DNA of 64,000 bases from Flavisolibacter sp. (GTDB lineage: Bacteria > Bacteroidota > Bacteroidia > Chitinophagales > Chitinophagaceae): assembly GCA_045805145.1 (NCBI GenBank), contig JBJMLU010000130.1, positions 5,392 through 69,391 of the forward strand, given 5' to 3'. This document shows positions 7,247 through 55,349 of the stretch, in pieces (positions within the stretch are counted from its first letter, which is position 1; every line of letters starts with the position of its first letter). The translations under genes and the position numbers were made by a program. Under the pieces are notes generated by a model. That model was given only the letters and a program-made list of their open reading frames with translations. It was not told the DNA's origin and ran no database searches.

Positions 7247-8320
7247 ATGAGAAAATATTTTGCAATGGGCATTGCCCTTGTGACAGGTCTGGCCACAATT
7301 GCCCAACCCATTACTACACCAAGAACACCAAGTCCTGCCGCTTCCATATCGCAAACCATTGGCATATCACAGGTAACGGTCAGCTATTCGAGGCCTTCGG
7401 TAAAAGGGCGTGAGATCTGGGGCAAGCTGGTACCTTATGGATGGAACGCGCAAAATTTTGGTAACGGAAATCCAGCTCCCTGGAGAGCCGGCGCCAATGA
7501 AAATACCACCATTAGATTCTCAAATGATGCCACCGTGGAAGGGAAACCCGTGCCCGCGGGCGAGTACGGACTGTTCTTCGTGGTCAATGAAGACAATACC
7601 GCCGACCTGATTCTCTCCAGGGATCACCGCTCCTGGGGCAGCTTTTTTTATAACCCCGACCAGGATTTGTTGAGAGCTAAAATACAACTGCGTGAAAATT
7701 CATTTACCGAAATGCTTACGTACGATTTTATCAACAGCACCAGGACTTCATCGGAGCTGGTGTTGAACTGGGAGAAAAAACAATTTCCGGTAAAGATTGC
7801 ATTTGACGTAGACAAAATTGTATTGGCCAATGCAGCAGAAGAATTGAAGAATACCACCGGGTTCAACGCGCAGGGATTCATCAGTGCCGCCAATTATGCG
7901 GTGCAAAACAAAACCGATTATGAACAGGCCTTAAAATGGATTGACCAGGCCATTGCCATGAACAAGACCTTTGCAGCCTTGAATGTAAAATCAACGATTC
8001 TACGGGAGATGAACAAGACCACAGAAGCAGACAAGACGATGGCCGAAGCCATAGCCCTGTCCAGTGAAACGGAGTTGAACCAATACGGTTACCAGTTGTT
8101 GGGCAGCGGGCAAACCGATAAAGCCATAGAAATACTGGCAATGAATGCAAAGCGCTTTCCAAACAGCGCCAACTGTTTTGATAGTCTGGGTGAGGCTTAT
8201 GCAAAGAAGGGCGATAAAAAAAATGCCATTGCCAATTTCAAAAAATCGTTGAGCATGAACCCTCCAGAAAATGTAAAGGCCAACTCAGAAAAGTTTTTGA
8301 AGGACCTGGGTGCCTTGTAA
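7247..8320 (+). CDS. DUF2911 domain protein with C-terminal TPR
   Basis: PRTPSPAASISQTIG..YSRPSVKGREIWGKLVPYG..PWRAGANENT signature. C-terminal NCFDSLGEAYAKKGDKKNAIANFKKSL TPR. Start moved to MRKYF. Confidence 0.88.
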   Translation: MRKYFAMGIALVTGLATIAQPITTPRTPSPAASISQTIGISQVTVSYSRPSVKGREIWGKLVPYGWNAQNFGNGNPAPWRAGANENTTIRFSNDATVEGKPVPAGEYGLFFVVNEDNTADLILSRDHRSWGSFFYNPDQDLLRAKIQLRENSFTEMLTYDFINSTRTSSELVLNWEKKQFPVKIAFDVDKIVLANAAEELKNTTGFNAQGFISAANYAVQNKTDYEQALKWIDQAIAMNKTFAALNVKSTILREMNKTTEADKTMAEAIALSSETELNQYGYQLLGSGQTDKAIEILAMNAKRFPNSANCFDSLGEAYAKKGDKKNAIANFKKSLSMNPPENVKANSEKFLKDLGAL

Positions 8321-43165: not shown

Positions 43166-46100
43166 ATGACCTATGCCGAACTTCAGGTAACCTCCAATTT
43201 CAGTTTTCTACAGGGTGCTTCTCATCCTGAAGAACTGATGGAACAGGCTGCAGGCCTGGGTCTGCAGCAAATAGCAATAACCGATGAAAACAGTTTTGCA
43301 GGACTGGTTCGTGGACACATGGCAGCAAAAAAATCCGGACTTCGCTTTATTCCAGGTGTCCGGCTTCAATTGCTTGATGGAGCAGGACTACTGGCTTATC
43401 CAACCGATAAAAATGCTTATTCCAGACTTAGTGCACTCCTTACCAAAGGAAACCTTCGTACAGAAAAAGGAAACTGCCATTTATATAAACAGGATGTGTA
43501 TGAACATGCAGAAGGATCTGAATTCATCGTCATTCCTCCCTGCTGTTTAAATGAACGTTTTGATTTTGCTGATTCATTTAAAAACCTTCTTAACGAATAC
43601 AAACAATCACTGGGTGAACATCTCTACCTCGCAGCTACCAGACACTATCTTGGTGATGACAGCAAACAACTACACCGTATTTCCCAATTATCTTCCTCCT
43701 TCGACATTCCGATGGTTGCCACGAACAATGTTTTTTATCATCACCCCGATCGAAGACAGCTTCAGGATGTTCTCACCTGCATTCGTGAAAAATGTACCAT
43801 TCAAACAGCAGGGTTCCGTCTTCATCCCAATGCTGAACGTCACCTGAAACCGGCGCAGGAAATGATTCGACTGTTTCGCCAGTATCCTGAAGCCATTCGG
43901 AACACAGAAAAAATTGCAGGGCTGTGCCGGTTTTCTCTGGACAGTCTTCAATATGAATATCCCCGTGAGATTACAACCGACGGCCGTACACCGCAGGAAG
44001 AACTATGCTACCGGGTATGGATATGCGCAAAGGAAAGGTTTGGCGAAAACATACCAGAAAAGATTACCCAGAACATTCACTATGAACTTTCCTTTATTGA
44101 GCAAATGAATTATGCGGCTTATTTTCTTACAGTTTACGACCTGGTTCGTTTTGCAAGAGAGCGCGGCATACTTTGTCAGGGAAGAGGATCTGCTGCTAAT
44201 TCAACAGTTTGTTATTGCCTGGGCATTACTTCGGTTGATCCCACAAAATTTGATTTACTATTTGAGCGTTTTATTTCTTCTGCACGCAATGAACCTCCGG
44301 ATATTGATGTAGACTTTGAACACGAAAGAAGGGAAGAAGTGATCCAGTACATCTATGAAAAATATGGACGCGACCGTGCGGCCATCGTTGCCACCGTTAC
44401 CTGTCAGCATCTCAAAGGAGCCATCAGGGATGTAGGAAAGGTCATGGGTTTATCCATTGATACCATCAACCATCTTTCCGGTTCCGCATGGTTTACCGAT
44501 GAACAGTTTGGAGAAAGCCAGCTTGCAGAACAGGGACTCAATCCGCACGATCAGCATCTTCAGAAAACTTTGATGCTCACAAAAGAGTTCATGGGGTTTC
44601 CAAGGCAATTGGGTCAGCATACCGGAGGATTCGTGATCACGGAATCAAAACTTTCTGATCTCTGTCCCATTTTGAATGCAAGAATGGAAAACAGAACTTG
44701 TATCGAATGGGACAAGAATGATATTGACGCATTGGGATTTTTGAAGATCGATGTACTGGCCCTGGGCATGCTTACCTGCATTCGTAAAGCTTTTGATCTG
44801 GCAAAAGAACATTATGATCTTGATCTTACATTGGCCAATATTCCCCAGGATGACAAGGCTGTATATGATATGATCTGCAAAGCAGATACTATTGGTGTAT
44901 TTCAGATTGAAAGCCGCGCGCAACAGGCCATGCTTCCGCTGCTAAAGCCCAGAAATTTTTATGATCTGGTGATTGAAGTGGCCATTGTTCGTCCGGGTCC
45001 CATTCTTGGAGACATGGTGCATCCTTATCTGCGAAGAAGAAATGGAGAAGAGCCGGTGGATTATCCATCCAAAGAACTGGAAGAAATTCTGGGACGCACA
45101 CTAGGCATTCCTCTTTTCCAGGAACAGGCGATGAAGATCGCTATTGTTGCTGCAGGTTTTTCTCCAACAGAAGCAGATGCCCTGCGAAGAAGCATGGCCA
45201 CTTTCAAATTGCAGGGAATGGTATCGAAGTTCCAGGAAAAACTCACCAGCGGAATGAAGCGCAATGGTTATAGTGCTGAATATGCGCAAAGGGTGTTTCG
45301 TCAGCTCGAAGGATTTGGCAGCTATGGATTTCCCGAAAGTCATGCGGCGAGCTTTGCTCTTTTGGTCTATGTTTCTTCCTGGATCAAATGTTATTACCCC
45401 GATGTATTTGCCTGTGCTCTGTTGAATAGTCTGCCCATGGGATTTTATCAGCCCGCGCAAATAGTAGATGATGCCAAAAAACATGGAGTGGAATTAAGAC
45501 CAGTCGATATCAATTTTTCAAATTGGGACAACAGGCTGGAAGAACGATCAGGAAGTTATTGTGCACTTCGATTGGGCTTTCGACAAATCAATGGATTGCG
45601 GGAGGAGGATGTGAAAGTATTGATCGCAGCCAGAGAAAATAATTATTCTGGCGTCACGGCTCTGAGAGATACAGGGCTTTCAAAATCAGCACTGGAAAAA
45701 CTTGCGGATGCCGATGCCTTCCGTTCCATTGGACTGGACAGAAGAGCAGCACTTTGGGAAATTTCCACGATGGATCATCCGGAAGCTTTATTCAAAGGAA
45801 AGAAGACAGAAGAGGAAGCAGTTGACTTGCCGCAAATGACATTGCCGCAACATGTGGTGCAGGATTATCAGAGCCTTTCTCTTTCACTAAAAGCACATCC
45901 TGTGAGCTTTTTGAGATCCAAACTCGATCAGTTGCATGTGGTTCCTGCAAAAAAATTAATGGAATACAAGGATGGCATGATGATCAAAGTTGCGGGACTC
46001 GTTCTCGTGCGACAGCGTCCGGAAACCGCCAAGGGCGTGTGTTTCATGACCATTGAAGATGAGGGAGGTTTTGTGAACCTGGTGATTTTTCAAAACCTGT

Positions 46101-46333
46101 TTGAAAAATATAAGAAGCAGGTATTGCAGTCAAAACTGATCATGGTGGAAGGAAGGCTGCAACGTGAAGGTGATGTGATCCATGTCATTGCCTCTTGTTG
46201 TCATGATCTTACCAAATGGTTGCGCGTTCTGCATAGGCCTGAAAATGTTGCAACAAAAATTCCGACACTGGAATTTAACCAGAAGAATGATGTTAAAAAA
46301 GATGTATTTCCTGGATCAAGAAATTTTAGGTGA
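43166..46333 (+). CDS. dnaE2: Error-prone DNA polymerase III alpha subunit DnaE2 (ImuC)
   Basis: YAELQVTSNFSFLQGASHPEEL, QGRGSAANS, EPPDIDVDFEHERREEVIQY, GFPESHAASFA, OB fold RQRPETAKGV, C-terminal SRNFR. Confidence 0.96.
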   Translation: MTYAELQVTSNFSFLQGASHPEELMEQAAGLGLQQIAITDENSFAGLVRGHMAAKKSGLRFIPGVRLQLLDGAGLLAYPTDKNAYSRLSALLTKGNLRTEKGNCHLYKQDVYEHAEGSEFIVIPPCCLNERFDFADSFKNLLNEYKQSLGEHLYLAATRHYLGDDSKQLHRISQLSSSFDIPMVATNNVFYHHPDRRQLQDVLTCIREKCTIQTAGFRLHPNAERHLKPAQEMIRLFRQYPEAIRNTEKIAGLCRFSLDSLQYEYPREITTDGRTPQEELCYRVWICAKERFGENIPEKITQNIHYELSFIEQMNYAAYFLTVYDLVRFARERGILCQGRGSAANSTVCYCLGITSVDPTKFDLLFERFISSARNEPPDIDVDFEHERREEVIQYIYEKYGRDRAAIVATVTCQHLKGAIRDVGKVMGLSIDTINHLSGSAWFTDEQFGESQLAEQGLNPHDQHLQKTLMLTKEFMGFPRQLGQHTGGFVITESKLSDLCPILNARMENRTCIEWDKNDIDALGFLKIDVLALGMLTCIRKAFDLAKEHYDLDLTLANIPQDDKAVYDMICKADTIGVFQIESRAQQAMLPLLKPRNFYDLVIEVAIVRPGPILGDMVHPYLRRRNGEEPVDYPSKELEEILGRTLGIPLFQEQAMKIAIVAAGFSPTEADALRRSMATFKLQGMVSKFQEKLTSGMKRNGYSAEYAQRVFRQLEGFGSYGFPESHAASFALLVYVSSWIKCYYPDVFACALLNSLPMGFYQPAQIVDDAKKHGVELRPVDINFSNWDNRLEERSGSYCALRLGFRQINGLREEDVKVLIAARENNYSGVTALRDTGLSKSALEKLADADAFRSIGLDRRAALWEISTMDHPEALFKGKKTEEEAVDLPQMTLPQHVVQDYQSLSLSLKAHPVSFLRSKLDQLHVVPAKKLMEYKDGMMIKVAGLVLVRQRPETAKGVCFMTIEDEGGFVNLVIFQNLFEKYKKQVLQSKLIMVEGRLQREGDVIHVIASCCHDLTKWLRVLHRPENVATKIPTLEFNQKNDVKKDVFPGSRNFR

Positions 46334-46532: not shown

Positions 46533-47003
46533 TCACGCTTGACGCTTGACGATTGACGTCTTTATTCTCAGATCATAGACAAAATCAGTTTTGGAAATGA
46601 TCTTCACCCATTGAATATCCTTATGAAGTGGGTTGATGAGAAAATTATTTTCTTCCGGAAGAACCGCAGAAGGAAGTTGGATGATGAGATGTGACTTCAA
46701 CAATTCTGTTCCGAAATCACGGGTGGAAGCAGGAGCAGGACTGTCGCGCCAGTTGCCGGGAATCTCACTGATAGCAGCTGAATAAATTTTCTTGTCGGGA
46801 ATTTCCAGCGTGATCATGCTGAGGGCTCTTGGAATTTCATCGATACCCACATTCACAGTGTACTCGAGCAAGGCCAGCGCGCGGCTTTCCGAAGCATAGA
46901 TGCAAGGAATGCCTGTCTGATTCCATCTTCCTCCATGAAGCCTGGCTCCTTCTCCACTCAGGTCATCCGACCATTTGGTTCTTGCCAATCGGTACACCAG
47001 CAT
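46533..47003 (-). CDS. RES domain toxin (ParT/MbcT-like NAD+-consuming family)
   Basis: MLVYRLA (R), SGEGARLHGGRWN..IYASESRALALLE (E), PSAVLPEENNFLINPLH (S/N). Confidence 0.92.
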   Translation of the reverse strand: MLVYRLARTKWSDDLSGEGARLHGGRWNQTGIPCIYASESRALALLEYTVNVGIDEIPRALSMITLEIPDKKIYSAAISEIPGNWRDSPAPASTRDFGTELLKSHLIIQLPSAVLPEENNFLINPLHKDIQWVKIISKTDFVYDLRIKTSIVKRQA

Positions 47004-47004
47004 A

Positions 47005-47529
47005 TCAGGAGTATACACCGTAGTCGATACGGCCAATGAGGTTTTTCACTTCTTCGCGGCCAAACTGGTTGTGCAGCAGTTCAAAGGGCGTTGATCCACC
47101 AAGTGCCTTATTCTCACGGAAGATCCATTCATTGAAATCTTCACTGTTACCAAATACTTCATAGCCATAGGAATAAATATCCGCGAGTCCCATGATGCGT
47201 TCACTAAGATCTCCGGAAAACTTAGCTGCACCTTTTTTATTGATCAGGGTGGAACGCGCTACATTCAAGACAGTAGCCAATTGATCGTAATCCAGTCCTG
47301 CTTTTTGTTTGAGCTGCTCGAGGTGCTTTTTTGAAAGTCCCCCTTCAATCAGTTTCATTTTTTCCATGGAAGTAAGCTTGCTCTCAGGAATGGAGCTGGC
47401 TTCCATCAGCACAACACGTGCAGGCGCGCCTACCGGTTTTTTTGCCGCACTCTTCCCTCTTCGGGGAAGCAGGGTCACTGATTTTGCAGGAGGAGAATAG
47501 GCTTTTGATTTTTTTTGATTCCGTGCCAT
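47005..47529 (-). CDS. Xre/MbcA/ParS family antitoxin
   Basis: HTH region GLDYDQLATVLNVARSTL. C-terminal EVFG..FNEWI..NKALGGSTPFELL..GREEVKNLIGRIDYGVYS. Confidence 0.92.
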   Translation of the reverse strand: MARNQKKSKAYSPPAKSVTLLPRRGKSAAKKPVGAPARVVLMEASSIPESKLTSMEKMKLIEGGLSKKHLEQLKQKAGLDYDQLATVLNVARSTLINKKGAAKFSGDLSERIMGLADIYSYGYEVFGNSEDFNEWIFRENKALGGSTPFELLHNQFGREEVKNLIGRIDYGVYS

Positions 47530-47575: not shown

Positions 47576-48258
47576 GGGTTTCACGCAAACCTGCCTGCCG
47601 GTAGGCAGGGACGCAAAGGAAAGGAAGACGCGAAAGTGTTCGCTTCGCTCAAGTGAAGGGAGTTTTTAAATGCAGTGGGTGCAAAGTGTGGATGTTTTTT
47701 TTAAAGCGGGGGGGGAGAGGTTTTAAACGCAAAGGACGCGGGGAACGCAAGGAGGGAGACGCAAAGGTTCGCGTGGCTCAAGGGTTGTATATGGGAATAT
47801 TTTTTAGAGCAAGAGCGTGCGTTGCAAAGAGATTAAATGCCTCACAGGGTTTATGTTATTTATTTTAGGTGTCTTTGGAACCGGCTGCACTGCTACCAGC
47901 AGCTTTACTTGTATCAGTCACTTGTACTGTAGTGATTCTATTCAGCAAGGCACTACACAATAAATTTAACTTCCAATTCAAAAATCAACTACAACCTATT
48001 TTCACCAACCACCCACAAGGAGTACACTCCCAATTAAAAAAATAAATTAGCCACCCGAAAGCGACATGAACCATTTCTTTCTCTCACCTTTGCGTCTCCC
48101 TCCCTTGCGTCCCCCGCGTCCTTTGCGTTTAAAACCTCTCCCCCCCGCTTTAAAAAAAACATCCACACTTTGCACCCACTGCATTTAAAAACTCCCTTCA
48201 CTTGAGCGAAGCGAACACTTTCGTGTCTTCCTTTCCTTTGCGTCTTGGCGTGAAACCC
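47576..48258. mobile_element. 683-bp non-coding inverted-repeat element (MITE/REPIN-like), copy A1
   Basis: Arms 47576-47768 and 48086-48258 are near-identical reverse complements starting GGGTTTCACGC. Core is homologous to 52230-52522. No target duplication seen. Mobility is inferred. Confidence 0.75.
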
Positions 48259-48341
48259 TATTGACAAAATTTCTTAGAGATGATTCTACTTCCTTCATGC
48301 ATCGGTTCAGGAGAGTTTGGTGTCAGGGAAAAGAAAAGCGA

Positions 48342-48959
48342 ATGCGAAAGGTTTATGCCATCCTTTTGATGCTTTACTGGTGCATTACAACGCATCCACA
48401 GGAAAATAAAGTCCGTTACGAAAATCAGGTCTGGGTCAATCTACCGAGGCTGATTGATCCGGCAAACCCTGGGATAGAAATGGGATATGAAAGAGCTTTG
48501 AGTAGAAAGTTTTCACAAGATGTCATCATAGGGTGGATGCGCCCGGTCTTTCAAACCAATAAGTTTGAAGGCTATCGATTCGGATTAGAAGAAAAAATTT
48601 TTTTGAATAGGCATGAACCGGCACTTTACTTAGCAGCCCAATTGATATACAATCATTCGGCGCTATACCACGTCGATAATTATGGCTATGACAGCACCGC
48701 TAATGCATTCGTTAATGCACCATTTACAATCGTACAGGAAAACCTTTCCCTGAACTTCATATCGGGACTTGTAGCGCATTGGAGAAGAGTTGTGTTGGAC
48801 CTGTATATGGGAATTGGAATCAAATACAGAACCATTCGTCATATCAATAGGAAATATCCCATTCAACCCCGGCTCGGGTTTGATCCCTATCGATCGAGGG
48901 AGGGATCGTCCTGGCAACCAAATCTTCCAATATCCATTCGCATTGGTTTCGCCTTTTAA
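48342..48959 (+). CDS. Putative outer-membrane beta-barrel protein (DUF3575-like)
   Basis: Signal-like N-terminus from MRKVYAILL, alternating beta-strand pattern, C-terminal IRIGFAF. Confidence 0.65.
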   Translation: MRKVYAILLMLYWCITTHPQENKVRYENQVWVNLPRLIDPANPGIEMGYERALSRKFSQDVIIGWMRPVFQTNKFEGYRFGLEEKIFLNRHEPALYLAAQLIYNHSALYHVDNYGYDSTANAFVNAPFTIVQENLSLNFISGLVAHWRRVVLDLYMGIGIKYRTIRHINRKYPIQPRLGFDPYRSREGSSWQPNLPISIRIGFAF

Positions 48960-49096
48960 TTCAGTATTTCGTCCACTTGATCACGACATTCACGTTTGCC
49001 GAATTGACTTCCTGATTCATTCAGTATTAAGGTCTATCAATTATCAACTTTGCCTTGCCGCACACAGACATCAACTTCAAAAAAAATCTCCGAAAT

Positions 49097-49260
49097 GAAC
49101 TTTGCGTTCTTTTGCCCCGCATTTGCGGGGATTATTTCTTTATCTTAAACTTTCCGCATCAAACCACCAGTAACACCAAAAAAATCTCCATCATCCCTCG
49201 CTCTACCCAAAAAATATTTGCGTCTTTGCCTCTTCGCATCTTTGCGTGAAACCCTATTGA
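49097..49260. repeat. Degenerate right arm of the CGCAAAG family
   Basis: CTTTGCGT modules ending GCGTGAAACCCTATTGA (49244-49260), identical to 48248-48264. Confidence 0.7.
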
Positions 49261-49303
49261 AGATTGACGATTTCCGTCTTATATTGAGAGAAATCAATTC
49301 TTC

Positions 49304-50638
49304 TTGTCATCACCCGGATTCAAACGAACACTCAACGCCACCATGCTCTGGGGTCTTGGTGTGGGCTATGTGATCTCGGGGATGTATTTCGGGTGGAACT
49401 TAGGCCTGGAGAAAGGAGGTACATTAGGCTTTGCAATCGCTACTTTCTTCATTGTGCTGATGTATGTGGCCTTTACTTTTAGCTACACGGAGCTGGCCTG
49501 TTCTATTCCAAAGGCAGGTGGTGCTTTTGATTATGCGCACCGTGCATTTGGAAAAAACCTGGGCTTCCTTGCAGGCATGGCCCAGAACATTGAATTTATT
49601 TTTGCTCCCCCAGCAATCGCTTTTGCCATCGGAGCCTATTTCAATTTGTTCTTTCCGCAATTTTCTGTTTTGTCCATCGCCATTTTTGTTTATCTCGTCT
49701 TCACTGCATTAAATATTTATGGAATAAAAGCCGCCGCTTCATTCGAATTGATCATCACCATTCTTGCTGTGTTCGAACTCCTGCTGTTTGCCGGCCTCAC
49801 GCTTCCACATTTTGATGTGGCCAATTTGAAGCACAATGCCTTTCCGCAAAAATGGGTGGGCGTCTTTGCTTCCATTCCTTTTGCCATCTGGTTTTTTCTT
49901 GGCATCGAAGGAGTGGCCAATGTAGCGGAGGAAACCCTCAATCCACAAAAAACCATTCTGCGTGGATTTGGTTCAGCCATTCTTACCCTGGTCGTTCTTT
50001 GTTTTCTTACGTTCGGTGGATCTGTTGGACTTGCTGGCTGGGAAGCCGTAGTGTACAAAGCTGATGGAACAACTTCTGACTCTCCTCTACCACTTGCACT
50101 TTCTCATGTAGTGCCGTCAGGACATTTTTTATACCATCTGCTCATCTCCATTGGACTGTTGGGACTGATAGCATCTTTTCACGGGATCATTCTTGCAGCA
50201 GGAAGATCGAGCTATGAATTTGGACGGGTAAGATGCGCACCACCTATCCTGGGCAGGCTGCATCCGCGATTTCAAACACCGGCAGCTGCCCTTGTATGCA
50301 ATATGTTTATTGGAATTCTGGCCCTGCTCAGTGGTAAAACTTCAGAGATCATTACCATTTCTGTTTTCGGCGCGCTTACGCTCTATATTCTTTCCATGTT
50401 TGCACTATTGCGACTGCGAAAAAAAGAACCTTCGCTTCAAAGGCCCTTCAAGGTTCCCATGTATCCGCTATCTCCCCTGGTTGCACTGATCATTGCTTTG
50501 GTCTCCTTTGTTGCGATGACGATTTATAACCTGGAGCTTGCCCTCATTTATGCCGCTTTGTTGCTTGGATCGTTTTTCATTTTTAAATTGATAGACAGGA
50601 ACAATGCCATCGATCACCATCAAACAAGCCTTCCATGA
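49304..50638 (+). CDS. eat: Ethanolamine permease-like APC transporter
   Basis: LWGLGVGYVISGMYFGWNLG, ELACSIPKAGG, WFFLGIEGVAN.AEE, about 12 TM segments. TTG start. Confidence 0.8.
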   Translation: MSSPGFKRTLNATMLWGLGVGYVISGMYFGWNLGLEKGGTLGFAIATFFIVLMYVAFTFSYTELACSIPKAGGAFDYAHRAFGKNLGFLAGMAQNIEFIFAPPAIAFAIGAYFNLFFPQFSVLSIAIFVYLVFTALNIYGIKAAASFELIITILAVFELLLFAGLTLPHFDVANLKHNAFPQKWVGVFASIPFAIWFFLGIEGVANVAEETLNPQKTILRGFGSAILTLVVLCFLTFGGSVGLAGWEAVVYKADGTTSDSPLPLALSHVVPSGHFLYHLLISIGLLGLIASFHGIILAAGRSSYEFGRVRCAPPILGRLHPRFQTPAAALVCNMFIGILALLSGKTSEIITISVFGALTLYILSMFALLRLRKKEPSLQRPFKVPMYPLSPLVALIIALVSFVAMTIYNLELALIYAALLLGSFFIFKLIDRNNAIDHHQTSLP

Positions 50639-51993
50639 ACACGGATGAAATCATTCAGTATGTCAACGACCATCCTTCCGGAAAAGTGAAGATCGCCTAC
50701 AGCGATGTGGATGGAATACTCCGGGGAAAATATATTGCGCGGGAAAAATTTCTTTCTGCAGTAGAAGGCAATACCAGCTTTTGTGATGTGATCTTTGGAT
50801 GGGACGCAGCAGACCTTGTATACGATAACAGCAAATTTACCGGATGGCATACAGGCTATCCTGATGCTCCTGCAAGAATTGATCTTTCTACTTTCCGGAA
50901 AATTCCGTGGGAAAACAATCTTCCTTTTTTTCTAGGCGAACTGTTGGATGAAAAAGGAGGGCCTTGCGAAATTTGCCCGAGACAACTCCTGAAAAAATTG
51001 ATGCGCACAGCAGATGAAATGGGGTTCACGCCTGTGTTCTCTCAGGAATTTGAATGGTACAATTTTGCAGAGACACCACAAACTGCAAACGAAAAACAAT
51101 TCAGGAACCTGGTTCCGCTCACACCTGGCATGTTTGGATATTCCATTCTTCGCAGCACATTAAAGAATGATTTTTTCTCTGACCTCTTTGAACTCCTCAA
51201 AAATTTTGGCGTTCCCCTCGAAGGACTGCATACCGAAACCGGTCCCGGTACCTATGAAGCAGCCATCATGTATGCCACGCTTCCCGAAGCCTCAGACCGT
51301 GCGATATTGTTCAAGACCGCAGTAAAAGAAATTGCTTACCGTCATGGCATCATGGCCAGCTTCATGGCGAAGATCAGCGAAAATCTTCCAGGTTGCGGTG
51401 GACATATTCATCAAAGCCTTTGGAATAAAGAAGCCGACACCAATTTGTTTTACTCGGAAAAAGATGCGATGAAAATGAGTGAGCTGATGAAGCAATATAT
51501 CGCTGGTCAACTCTATTGTCTTCCTCAAATCCTTCCCATGTTTGCCCCAACCATCAATAGTTATAAACGTTTGGTGGAAGGAGCCTGGGCGCCTACGACG
51601 CTCACCTGGGGTATTGACAACCGCACCGTTGCCCTTCGCGTGTTGAACAACAGTAAAAAAACCTGCAGGCTGGAAACGAGGGTCGTGGGTGCAGATGTCA
51701 ATCCTTACCTGGCCATGGCTGCAGCACTCGGAGCCGGACTTTATGGTATTCGTCACAAGCTGGAATTGAAGCAACCCACAACTAAGGGCAATGGCTATCT
51801 TGATTTTTCCAATGGCCAACTGCCGCGCACACTCGAGGAGGCCACACAGATGATGAAATCATCAGCAGTAGCAAAAGAAATATTTGGAGCAGGATTTACT
51901 GAACACTTCACGCTCACCCGCGAATGGGAATGGAAGCAACACCTAAAAGCCGTTACGGACTGGGAATACCGCAGGTACTTCGAAATTATCTAG
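50635..51993 (+). CDS. Glutamine synthetase-like (gamma-glutamylating) enzyme
   Basis: DVDGILRGK, HTETGPGTYE, PGCGGHIHQSL, NSYKRLV..WAPT..WGIDNRT..RLETRV.GAD.NPYL. Confidence 0.9.
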   Translation: MNTDEIIQYVNDHPSGKVKIAYSDVDGILRGKYIAREKFLSAVEGNTSFCDVIFGWDAADLVYDNSKFTGWHTGYPDAPARIDLSTFRKIPWENNLPFFLGELLDEKGGPCEICPRQLLKKLMRTADEMGFTPVFSQEFEWYNFAETPQTANEKQFRNLVPLTPGMFGYSILRSTLKNDFFSDLFELLKNFGVPLEGLHTETGPGTYEAAIMYATLPEASDRAILFKTAVKEIAYRHGIMASFMAKISENLPGCGGHIHQSLWNKEADTNLFYSEKDAMKMSELMKQYIAGQLYCLPQILPMFAPTINSYKRLVEGAWAPTTLTWGIDNRTVALRVLNNSKKTCRLETRVVGADVNPYLAMAAALGAGLYGIRHKLELKQPTTKGNGYLDFSNGQLPRTLEEATQMMKSSAVAKEIFGAGFTEHFTLTREWEWKQHLKAVTDWEYRRYFEII

Positions 51994-52029
51994 GAGGTTT
52001 CAGGCAAAGGCGTTCCGCCCGCTGGAGTG

Positions 52030-52660
52030 GTTTCACGCAAAGACGCAAAGATTTGAAGGCGCAAAGGGATTTTTTAAATGTAGAGGGTAGGGTTTTTTTA
52101 ATGCAAGGAGAGAGTCTTTTAAATGTAAAGAGAGAGTTTTTTAAATGTAAAGAGAGAGTTTTTTAAACGCAAAGGACGCAGGGAGCGCAAGGAGAGAGAC
52201 GCAAAGGTGTTCGCTTCGCTCACGGGTGGTTGATTTTATTCTTTTGATTCGGAGTGTAGTCTTTTTAATTCTGAGTGTACTGCTTATAGTTAATTACTTA
52301 AAGTAGGTTGAATTGATTTTTGGATTCGATCATGTAGTTCATTTGTGAGATGCCCCGCTGAAAGAACCACTACAGCACAAGTGAGTGACATAAGAAAAGC
52401 TGCTGGCAGTACTGCAGCTGATTACATGAACTTCTTAAATATAAAAAAGGATAAATACTATGAGACATTTTAGTCATCTTATCCAGCGCACGCTGGTCGC
52501 CTTCAGAAAATAATTCCCATACCCACCCGTGAGCGAAGTGAACACCTTTGCGTCTCTCTCCTTGCGCTCCCTGCGTCCTTTGCGTTTAAAAAAACTCTCT
52601 CTCCTTACATTTAAAAAAATCCCTTTGCGTCTTTGTCCTCTTTGCGTCTTGGCGTGAAAC
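52030..52660. mobile_element. 631-bp non-coding inverted-repeat element, copy A2
   Basis: Arms 52030-52229 and 52523-52660 start GTTTCACGC. The left arm carries a tandem expansion of a TTTTAAATGTAAAGAGAGAG-type unit. Core is in opposite orientation to A1. Confidence 0.75.
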
Positions 52661-54962: not shown

Positions 54963-55349
54963 TCAATAGTTATTCACTTTTCTTTTAAAGCCCTCCTTTA
55001 ACAGCGATACATTAAAATTGATCAAAAAGCCCAGTTGTTTGTTTGCCAATCTCAGGTAAGACAGCAATTGGGCTTCGTGTACTGTAAGCAATACTTCTAC
55101 TGATTTGATCTCAACGATAATTTCATCTTCCACAAGCATATCAATGTAAAAAGATTTTCCTGTATGCTGCCCCTTATAAACCAAAGGCATATGTAGTTGA
55201 TACTTTACTTGAATATTTCTTAATTGAAGTTCTTTCAGTAAAGCATATTCGTAAATAGATTCTAACAGTCCTGGTCCAAGGTATTTATGAACTTCCAGTG
55301 CTGAAAGAAAAATTTGCTTTCCCAAAAATTCACACCTTTCTTTTTCCAT
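54963..55349 (-). CDS. GxxExxY protein (PD-(D/E)XK nuclease-like)
   Basis: VHKYLGPGLLESIYEYAL, IDMLVEDEIIVEIKS, AQLLSYLRL..GFLINF. Confidence 0.93.
   Translation of the reverse strand: MEKERCEFLGKQIFLSALEVHKYLGPGLLESIYEYALLKELQLRNIQVKYQLHMPLVYKGQHTGKSFYIDMLVEDEIIVEIKSVEVLLTVHEAQLLSYLRLANKQLGFLINFNVSLLKEGFKRKVNNY

What the first reader, a model, noticed from the sequence alone, without database searches (positions are those of the whole stretch)
47885..52410. Conserved two-hairpin core inside the A elements
Seen: the roughly 65-nt cores (47885-47946 reverse; 52348-52410) align as GAA(T/C)CACTACAG(T/C)ACAAGTGA(C/G)TGA..AAAGCTGCTGG..GCAGC. Stems CACT-N8-AGTG and GCTGC-N10-GCAGC are invariant, differences fall outside them, and the rest of the spacer is more diverged. 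Inference: a functional ncRNA or a protein-recognition or cleavage site carried in the loop of the large hairpin.
Basis: partly seen in the sequence, partly recalled or inferred. Interest (0 to 1): 0.62.

Follow-up and report, generated by a model that had tools for sequence, protein, structure and literature searches.

The report
Family-wide intergenic repeat inside foldback elements
The conserved "core" in the two large palindromic elements is not a two-hairpin RNA; it is a copy of an apparently undescribed repeat of about 80 bases, present in tens to over a hundred copies per genome in about 60% of Chitinophagaceae genera sampled, kept by its sequence rather than by a fold.

Summary
The two cores are real, at window 47872-47949 (-) and 52354-52430 (+). 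They are the best-conserved 80 nt of the 13 A-type elements in this genome. The two proposed hairpins are not supported. Across 110 copies from many genera they pair in only 61-68% of cells without compensatory changes. RNAalifold finds no consensus fold on either strand, and folding energy equals that of shuffles.

The core is one member of a ~79-nt dispersed intergenic repeat. There are at least 58 copies in this genome and at least 144 in a complete genome of the same genus. It occurs in 93 of 150 genera of the family and in phage contigs. It matches no Rfam family and no paper in the searched library.

It has conserved sequence boxes (AATAGAATTAC; GTACAAGnG[A/T]G[T/C]GAC[A/G]CAAC; GATAGTAG; GCAGCTGG; A-rich tail). 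One 7-9-bp mini-palindrome exists in two compensated states. The repeat is polar, always intergenic and not positionally conserved. Copies less than 2 kb apart are always inverted (36 of 36).

In this genome it sits in the loops or arms of long palindromes, which is rare in the other genomes sampled. The most likely reading is a REPIN/MITE-like repeat read by an unknown conserved factor. A transcribed punctuation element is the main rival.

The parts
52354..52430 (+). Core copy in element A2 (77 nt). It holds a degenerate box A (GAA-AGAACCAC), box B (CACAAGTGAGTGACATAAG), box C/D (GCTGCTGGCAGTACTGCAGCTG) and the tail ATTACATGAA.
   Evidence: 104 bits to the core profile (C130 57712-57834, which is window 52321-52443).
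47872..47949 (-). Core copy in element A1 (78 nt), with box A intact (AATAGAATCAC). It is 79-81% identical to the A2 copy.
   Evidence: C130 53360-53251.
52029..52660 (.). Foldback element A2. Arms are built of CGCAAAG-type units (52159-52229 / 52523-52593, 99% complementary; outer 52030-52051 / 52639-52660). The ~293-nt loop carries the core. It lies between convergent genes (a glutamine-synthetase-like gene and a flavin-reductase-like gene).
   Evidence: (I2, I18).
47576..48257 (.). Foldback element A1. Arms are 47610-47714 / 48140-48244 (105 nt, 99%) plus inner arms. The loop carries the core on the minus strand. It lies between the divergent Xre-RES toxin-antitoxin operon and an ORF of unknown family.
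   Evidence: (I1, I5).
52383..52391 (+). Mini-palindrome of box B (GAGTGACAT here; family states GAGTGACAC or GTGCGACGC). It is the only part of the core with compensatory variation.
   Evidence: columns 66/68/72: T-C-G 111, A-T-A 98, 4 others of 215; pair 35-39: UA 59, CG 50, UG 1, unpaired 0.
49217..49260 (.). Solitary fragment of an A-element end (…TTTGCGTGAAACCCTATTGA), without a core.
   Evidence: (D2, I8).

Best explanation
The core is a copy of a Chitinophagaceae-wide, ~79-nt, polar, essentially hairpin-less dispersed intergenic repeat. I read it as a non-autonomous, REPIN/MITE-like DNA element. On this reading, its conserved boxes are the address for a family-conserved trans-acting factor that has not been identified. 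The boxes are box A AATAGAATTAC; its direct half-repeat box C (G/A)ATAGTAG(C/T)A(C/A), 43 nt downstream; and between them box B, with a 7-9-bp dyad that exists in two compensated states. That factor would copy or maintain the repeat, typically as inverted doublets.

In this genome the repeat has been built into larger palindromes. It appears as a single copy in the unpaired loop of the CGCAAAG-armed A elements (the two window copies). It also appears as convergent doublets inside other palindromes with GTCATTGCGAGC and heptamer arms.

Shown: family membership, the anatomy, the lack of a fold, the polarity, the inverted-pair rule and the lack of positional conservation.

Inferred: that recognition is by a protein acting on DNA, and that the repeat spreads by trans-mobilisation.
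For: Copy number and spread:
- At least 58 copies in this genome; at least 144 and 54 copies in two complete genomes.
- Present in 94 of 151 genomes, which is 93 of 150 genera.
- At least 119 contigs of named genera, including Flavisolibacter, Segetibacter, Pinibacter, Foetidibacter, Terrimonas, Lacibacter and Flavihumibacter.

Behaviour of a dispersed repeat:
- Copies are always intergenic.
- Positions are not orthologous: 0 of 46 genes that carry a copy upstream in other genomes carry one in this genome.
- Flanks are unrelated right up to sharp boundaries.
- Neighbours closer than 2 kb are inverted in 36 of 36 cases, never tandem. In other genera the doublets span 146-530 bp with the cores as outward-facing arms.
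- Copies sit in convergent gaps more often than divergent ones (28 vs 14).

Sequence, not structure:
- No consensus fold on either strand, energies equal to shuffles, and no covariation in the stems.
- Blocks of 11 and 17 nt are nearly invariant.

Not coding: a 1-nt indel lies between the boxes, the reverse-strand ATG is followed by TAA, and the small ORF after the core is not kept.

The core is the best-conserved part of the A elements.
Against: - No cognate enzyme was found. This genome has no Y1/RAYT transposase, and no protein family recurs next to the copies in 130 loci.
- No target-site duplication of 5 bp or more stands out above shuffled controls.
- No empty site could be recovered, because the nearest genomes are only about 75% identical in protein and not syntenic here.
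- Conservation of ~79 nt across a whole bacterial family is unusual for a purely selfish repeat.
- In phage contigs, about 20 of 26 copies point the same way as the genes and fill the whole gap between two ORFs. In cells the upstream gene is co-oriented more often than not (67:45 in other genomes, 41:15 here). Both fit an RNA-level or transcription-level role.
- The only intermediates at the compensated pair are T/G, which would be a wobble pair on the forward strand. This hints at single-strand pairing rather than recognition of duplex DNA.
Confidence: 0.5

Rival explanations
1. Transcribed 'punctuation' cassette. The repeat would act on or in mRNA in the forward orientation, as an internal promoter plus leader, an intercistronic processing or stability site, or a 3'-UTR element read by host machinery. 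It would spread as a mobile regulatory cassette.
For: - In phage contigs about 20 of 26 copies are co-directional with the gene array. The upstream ORF often stops inside or just before box A, and the next ATG lies 5-35 nt after the A-rich tail. The contigs carry genuine phage genes.
- In other cellular genomes, 58 of 188 copies have a co-oriented ORF of at least 80 aa starting within 75 nt of the 3' end. The mirror-image control gives 19. The downstream genes are mostly housekeeping genes.
- The upstream gene is co-oriented 67:45 in other genomes and 41:15 here.
- T/G is the only intermediate at the compensated pair, which is a wobble on the forward strand only.
Against: - In tandem gene pairs the copy points with the genes 39 times and against them 31 times. 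Convergent gaps (28) outnumber divergent gaps (14).
- The 3' end is equally close to a downstream gene whether it meets the gene's start or its stop.
- The sequence contains no Bacteroidota-type TTG-N19-21-TAnnTTTG promoter (my reading of the consensus).
- There is no U-tract terminator and no conserved fold.
- Positions are not conserved between genomes.
Confidence: 0.3
2. Terminal inverted repeat of a classical DDE-transposase MITE. The ~80-bp core would be a multi-site transposase-binding end finishing in …CA, and solitary copies would be solo ends.
For: - Outward-facing doublets of 146-530 bp occur in several genera, with both outer ends reading …GG-N2-3-CA(T)AAAA.
- Box A and box C are direct half-repeats 43 nt apart, resembling multiple binding sites.
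- The 3' end abuts unique DNA, while the 5' side continues into lineage-specific repeat sequence.
Against: - No target-site duplication.
- No autonomous copy or recurrent transposase in 130 loci. Two pairs 1-2 kb apart enclose ordinary genes.
- Most copies are solitary.
- In this genome all 18 doublets are convergent, so the supposed termini face inwards.
Confidence: 0.12
3. One reading: a structured small RNA, or a cleavage site, with two hairpins presented in the loop of the large hairpin.
For: Both stems can form in the two window copies, and one predicted MFE structure (a 75-nt stretch of the A2 core) contains both (fifth sequence). The core is more conserved than the rest of the loop.
Against: - Stems are paired in only 61-68% of cells without compensatory change.
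- RNAalifold returns no structure, and z-scores are +0.4 to +1.0.
- No Rfam family matches, even at E=10.
- In other genomes most copies (124 of 136) have no enclosing hairpin.
Confidence: 0.03
4. A small hydrophobic peptide gene on the reverse strand (for example EPAALLPAALLVSVTCTVVILFS in A1), or a short ORF after the core (MRHFSHLIQRTL…).
For: The reverse strand is open in many copies. A 13-17-codon ORF follows the core in several A-type copies.
Against: - A 1-nt length difference between box A and box B splits the family.
- The conserved CAT (reverse ATG) is followed by TAA in the consensus.
- Conservation runs in contiguous blocks with no 3-base periodicity.
- The downstream mini-ORF loses its start or gains stops in 7 of 15 A-type copies.
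Confidence: 0.02

Closest known systems
REP / BIME elements and REPINs with their RAYT transposases (Enterobacteria, Pseudomonas; GTAG- and CGTC-tagged REPs, PMC3733652)
   Same: High-copy, strictly extragenic, and sequence-conserved within a lineage. Not positionally conserved. Commoner at gene ends and in convergent gaps. Close copies occur as inverted doublets (36 of 36).
   Different: - The unit is ~79 nt, not 20-40 nt.
- It has no stem-loop, only a 2-3-bp mini-palindrome.
- This genome has no Y1/RAYT gene.
- Conservation spans a whole family (93 of 150 genera) rather than a species or genus.
Bacterial MITEs with regulatory side-effects, such as the Correia elements of Neisseria (from my own knowledge)
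   Same: Small non-autonomous intergenic repeats. They occur as inverted-arm units of 150-500 bp, often sit next to gene starts, and can supply regulatory signals.
   Different: No target-site duplication was detected and no parental IS was found. Most copies are single arms. Orientation relative to the arms is inverted in this genome.
PeSL promoter/stem-loop 'mobile regulatory cassettes' of T4-type phages (from my own knowledge)
   Same: A short conserved cassette repeated between unrelated genes, co-directional with transcription in phage genomes.
   Different: No recognisable promoter or stem-loop. It is mainly a chromosomal repeat, and cellular copies show little orientation bias.
Flavo-1 RNA motif (Rfam RF01705), a repeated structured motif of Bacteroidota
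   Same: A repeated intergenic motif of unknown function in the same phylum.
   Different: No match in the Rfam scans of the window and six loci, and no conserved fold here.

Membership tests
REP/REPIN-RAYT | The unit is a 20-40-nt imperfect palindrome that folds into a stem-loop | tested here: not met
   RNAalifold gives an empty structure on both strands. Energies equal shuffles. Only one covarying pair, in a 7-9-nt dyad.
REP/REPIN-RAYT | Close copies form inverted doublets | tested here: met
   36 of 36 neighbour pairs under 2 kb are inverted: 18 convergent in this genome, 17 divergent plus 1 convergent elsewhere, 0 tandem.
REP/REPIN-RAYT | A cognate Y1 (HUH) RAYT/TnpA gene is present in the genome | tested here: not met
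   PF01797 gives no match in the 99.9%-complete own genome, while the control genomes scored.
REP/REPIN-RAYT | Extragenic, tens to thousands of copies | tested here: met
MITE (DDE-type) | Terminal inverted repeats bounding a unit of 50-500 bp | tested here: inconclusive
   Outward doublets of 146-530 bp exist in other genera. Most copies are solitary, and the doublets of this genome are inward-facing.
MITE (DDE-type) | Target-site duplication | tested here: not met
   The longest shared words between the flanks match the shuffled pairing. Duplications shorter than 5 bp are not excluded.
MITE (DDE-type) | An autonomous IS with the same ends | tested here: not met
   No recurrent transposase-like cluster among 830 ORFs of 130 loci. 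Pairs 1-2 kb apart enclose ordinary genes. This was not an exhaustive genome-wide search.
Any Rfam RNA family | Score at or near a family's gathering threshold | tested here: not met
   No hit at gathering threshold in the window. Only noise at E up to 10 on the core and on six other loci.
   helix 1 has 0 pairs with double changes. Helix 3 is 61% paired, with its inner pair unpaired in 90 of 110 sequences.
IS200/IS605-derived PATE | A Y1 transposase in the genome and subterminal hairpins | tested here: not met
   No PF01797 and no conserved hairpin. TnpB was not searched.
Small protein / type I toxin gene | An open frame kept across copies with codon-like substitution | tested here: not met
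   A 1-nt indel between the boxes, no 3-base periodicity, and the mini-ORF is lost in many copies.

The most novel reading that the evidence does not exclude
The repeat is not merely selfish. It would be a family-wide ~80-nt 'address' read by a conserved host factor. Its box B would be a two-state switch (GAGTGACAC or GTGCGACGC, with almost no intermediates in 215 copies from dozens of genera), read either as a tiny single-strand hairpin or by two paralogous readers. On this reading it would mark gene boundaries for transcription or RNA processing in both cells and their phages, which would make it a new class of bacterial intergenic punctuation signal.
Probability: 0.2. Interest if true: 0.8.

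Novelty: new variant of a known kind. Interest (0 to 1): 0.5.

Why it matters
Chitinophagaceae are abundant soil and rhizosphere bacteria. About 60% of the genera sampled (93 of 150) carry tens to more than a hundred copies of this 79-nt sequence between their genes, and their phages carry it too. Yet it is absent from Rfam and from the searchable literature. A repeat kept this exact over family-level divergence implies a conserved reader that is still unknown, whether an enzyme, a DNA-binding protein or an RNA-binding protein. It could also reveal a new mobilisation or gene-boundary mechanism in Bacteroidota. For annotation, the profile lets these elements be masked or labelled rather than mistaken for small ORFs or RNAs.

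Tried and rejected
- Rfam at gathering and permissive thresholds: nothing.
- Literature search by motif strings and by topic: nothing relevant.
- INPHARED phage records: no match.
- Two-hairpin fold: rejected.
- Box A as the loop of a hairpin: no covariation between its flanks.
- Reverse-strand peptide and the downstream mini-ORF: rejected.
- "Stop codons in all three frames" as a designed feature: rejected, because shuffles close all frames at least as often.
- Hammerhead, sigma-54, ECF and Bacteroidota sigma-A promoter look-alikes: considered by eye against the consensus; none fits, and none was formally tested.
- Target-site duplication: none of 5 bp or more.
- Empty-site comparison at the A2 locus: impossible, because relatives are about 75% identical in protein and not syntenic.
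- Replichore strand bias in the complete genome G015: judged by eye from the listed hits, orientation is mixed along the chromosome with at most a slight local bias, so not pursued.
- Linkage to the PDDEXK_3 (GxxExxY) nuclease near the window's end: only 4 copies in the genome, none next to a core.
- RAYT: absent.
Full report
**1. The observation**

The two cores are present. Their shared 21-mer occurs twice in the window, against none expected by chance. Each lies in the ~300-nt middle of a 630-680-bp foldback element. The arms of these elements are built of CGCAAAG-type units and are 99% complementary (I1 105 nt, I2 71 nt). By alignment to the family, the module is 47872-47949 (-) and 52354-52430 (+).

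In an alignment of 13 A-type elements from this genome, 52350-52429 is the most conserved stretch. Mean pairwise identity there is 0.79-0.88, against 0.54-0.75 for the rest of the loop. So the part of the observation that the core is better kept than the spacer is correct.

**2. The hairpins**

Both proposed stems can form in the two window copies, but they are not special.
- Folding of the stated coordinates gives z-scores of +0.4 to +1.0 against dinucleotide shuffles.
- Across 152 copies the mean MFE equals that of shuffled sequence (-11.7 vs -11.5 kcal/mol forward, -12.8 vs -11.6 reverse).
- RNAalifold returns an empty structure on both strands.
- Stem 2 (columns 48-52 with 63-67) is paired in 61% of cells. 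When column 49 changes C to A, its partner G does not follow, and the inner pair is unpaired in 90 of 110 sequences.

**3. What the core is**

A BLAST search and then a profile search found at least 58 copies in this 5.5-Mb genome. All of them lie in gaps between ORFs. A covariance model built from the alignment (R1) hit 94 of 151 genus-representative genomes of the family, which is 93 of 150 genera. It found at least 144 and 54 copies in two complete genomes. The pattern is also in 17 IMG/VR viral contigs, and these contigs carry head-morphogenesis and HNH endonuclease genes.

Nothing in Rfam matches. No paper in the searchable library holds the motif strings, and the INPHARED phage records have no match.

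**4. Anatomy**

The consensus is (T/A)TGCT(G/C)AATAGAATTAC - 5 or 6 variable nt - GTACAAG-n-G[A/T]G[T/C]GAC[A/G]CAAC - ~6 nt - GNTGATAGTAG(C/T)A(C/A)TGCAGCTGG - 2-3 nt - CA(T)AA + A-rich run.

- Box A (AATAGAATTAC) and box C ((G/A)ATAGTAG(C/T)A(C/A)) share the pattern ATAGnAnnAC and lie 43 nt apart.
- Box B contains the only compensatory signal. Three linked positions occur as A..T...A (98 copies) or T..C...G (111 copies), with 4 exceptions in 215 unique copies.
- The pair at positions 68/72 is T-A or C-G, with T/G as the only mixed state in the 110-sequence sample and never C/A.
- Both states coexist in the same genomes, and sometimes in the two arms of one element.
- The dyad is 7-9 bp around a central A. 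That is too short for a stable hairpin on its own.

**5. Not coding**

A 1-nt length difference between boxes A and B splits the family. Conservation runs in contiguous blocks without 3-base periodicity. The conserved CAT at the 3' end, read as a reverse-strand ATG, is followed by TAA in the consensus. The 13-17-codon ORF after the core in A2 has no intact counterpart (no start, or early stops) in 7 of the 15 A-type copies compared. An apparent design of stops in all frames is no more than composition.

**6. Context**

*Positions are not conserved.* None of 46 genes that have a copy just upstream in other genomes has one in this genome. No protein family recurs beside the copies. No flanking duplication of 5 bp or more exceeds the shuffled control.

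*The repeat is polar.* Its 3' end lies a median of 66-78 nt from the next gene, whether it meets that gene's start or its stop. The 5' side has a median of 166-169 nt of non-coding DNA. Within a genome, homology between copies continues on the 5' side but stops at the A-rich tail.

*Orientation.* The upstream gene is co-oriented 67:45 in other genomes and 41:15 here. Within tandem gene pairs, however, the copy points with the genes only 39:31, and convergent gaps outnumber divergent gaps 28:14. In phage contigs about 20 of 26 non-redundant copies (my tally from the gene-order listing) are co-directional with the gene array and fill the whole intergenic gap. The upstream ORF often ends in or just before box A, and the next ATG follows 5-35 nt after the tail. 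In other cellular genomes, 58 of 188 copies have a co-oriented ORF starting within 75 nt, against 19 for the mirror-image control.

*Pairs.* Neighbouring copies less than 2 kb apart are always inverted, 36 of 36. In other genomes they are divergent, with tails pointing outwards (17 of 18). In this genome all 18 are convergent.

**7. What is special in this genome**

Here 45 of 54 copies are flanked by inverted repeats of at least 12 nt within 350 nt. Elsewhere the figure is 12 of 136. Two architectures occur:
- the A type, with one core in the loop of CGCAAAG-armed hairpins (~14 copies, including both window copies);
- palindromes with GTCATTGCGAGC and heptamer arms. In these, two cores face each other across a 54-191-nt centre (mostly 114-191 nt) that in many copies holds a GC-rich hairpin (…TCGTTGGCGGCGACGCCAACAAGAGC…).

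So the core is older and far more widespread than the A elements. The A elements are a local vehicle for it, not its defining context.

**8. Mechanism**

The best-supported reading is a REPIN/MITE-like non-autonomous DNA repeat. Its boxes would be the address of an unidentified, family-conserved factor (confidence about 0.5). The steps that are shown and those that are inferred are listed in the explanation sections.

This genome lacks a Y1/RAYT transposase. The PDDEXK_3 nuclease gene near the window's end has only four copies, none adjacent to a core. The known REP machinery is therefore excluded, and no alternative was identified.

The main rival (about 0.3) is a transcribed punctuation cassette. 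It is supported by the phage data, the proximity to start codons and the T/G intermediates. It is weakened by the weak orientation bias in cells and by the lack of any recognisable promoter, terminator or fold.

**9. Relation to earlier notes of this scan**

I had already established the family-wide distribution independently when a look-up by words showed related notes. Several earlier follow-ups on other Chitinophagaceae genomes had described what is very probably the same ~85-nt repeat. Their descriptions mention a motif TAYAAGWG followed by a GC-rich 11-mer, which fits box B. They also report presence in phages, polarity, and no same-direction pairs under 2 kb. I re-tested the phage claim and the pair rule, and both hold in my data. 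These notes are unchecked AI leads, not independent evidence.

**10. Verdict**

- The two-hairpin interpretation is rejected.
- The idea of a conserved recognition module is upheld and greatly widened.
- The element is an apparently undescribed variant of the dispersed-repeat kind. This scan has now seen it repeatedly.
- New contributions here are the two-state compensated box B, the box A/box C direct half-repeat, and the finding that this genome embeds the repeat in long palindromes with the doublet orientation reversed.

Noticed in passing
G000 C217:10739-10824 (a core copy); window 47590-47609: A 20-bp perfect palindrome (CCTGCCTACCGGCAGGCAGG) is cleanly inserted inside one core copy, between …AAAGCA and CAAGGGAG…. 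The same 20-mer type sits in the left arm of A1 but not in its right arm. It looks like a separate, very small mobile palindrome.
   Followed up: partly
G000 contigs C130, C168, C187, C7, C177: A-type elements tend to come two or three to a contig, 2.4-6 kb apart, bracketing a few ordinary genes. In the window they bracket an amino-acid permease gene and a glutamine-synthetase-like gene. Relative orientation varies (facing, back-to-back, direct). This could reflect insertion hot spots or recombination between elements.
   Followed up: no
G000, e.g. C106:49377-49472, C245:20528-20622, C59:5461-5615: The centre between convergent core doublets carries a conserved asymmetric GC-rich hairpin, …CTCGTTGGCGG(C/A)GACGCCAACAAGAGCA…, in either orientation, flanked by AT-rich runs (TAAATTATTTTTCTAAAA).
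   Followed up: partly
L180 (IMGVR_UViG_3300018915_000009) about 8095-8170: In one phage contig the core is truncated after box B. An HNH homing-endonuclease gene (phrog_59, E 8e-42) starts there, and its ATG replaces the core's 3' part.
   Followed up: no
window 54963-55349 (-): A 128-aa PD-(D/E)XK nuclease of family PDDEXK_3 (PF13366, E 7e-38). The genome has four such genes. None is adjacent to a core copy.
   Followed up: partly
Loci L035, L066, L059, L023, L040, L084 (5' flanks of cores): In other genera, small GC-rich hairpins of the type GCTCCGTAGGAGC / AGCCCCGTAGGGGCT / CCCCGAAGGGG often lie within 100 nt 5' of the core. The repeat CTTCGACAGGCTCAGNGTGAC also lies there in some. This suggests that several repeat families co-locate in these gaps.
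   Followed up: no
window 43166-46333 and 46533-47529: An error-prone DnaE2-like polymerase gene (DNA_pol3_alpha) is followed by a RES-Xre toxin-antitoxin pair directly beside element A1. The minus-strand core of A1 points towards the start of the Xre gene.
   Followed up: no
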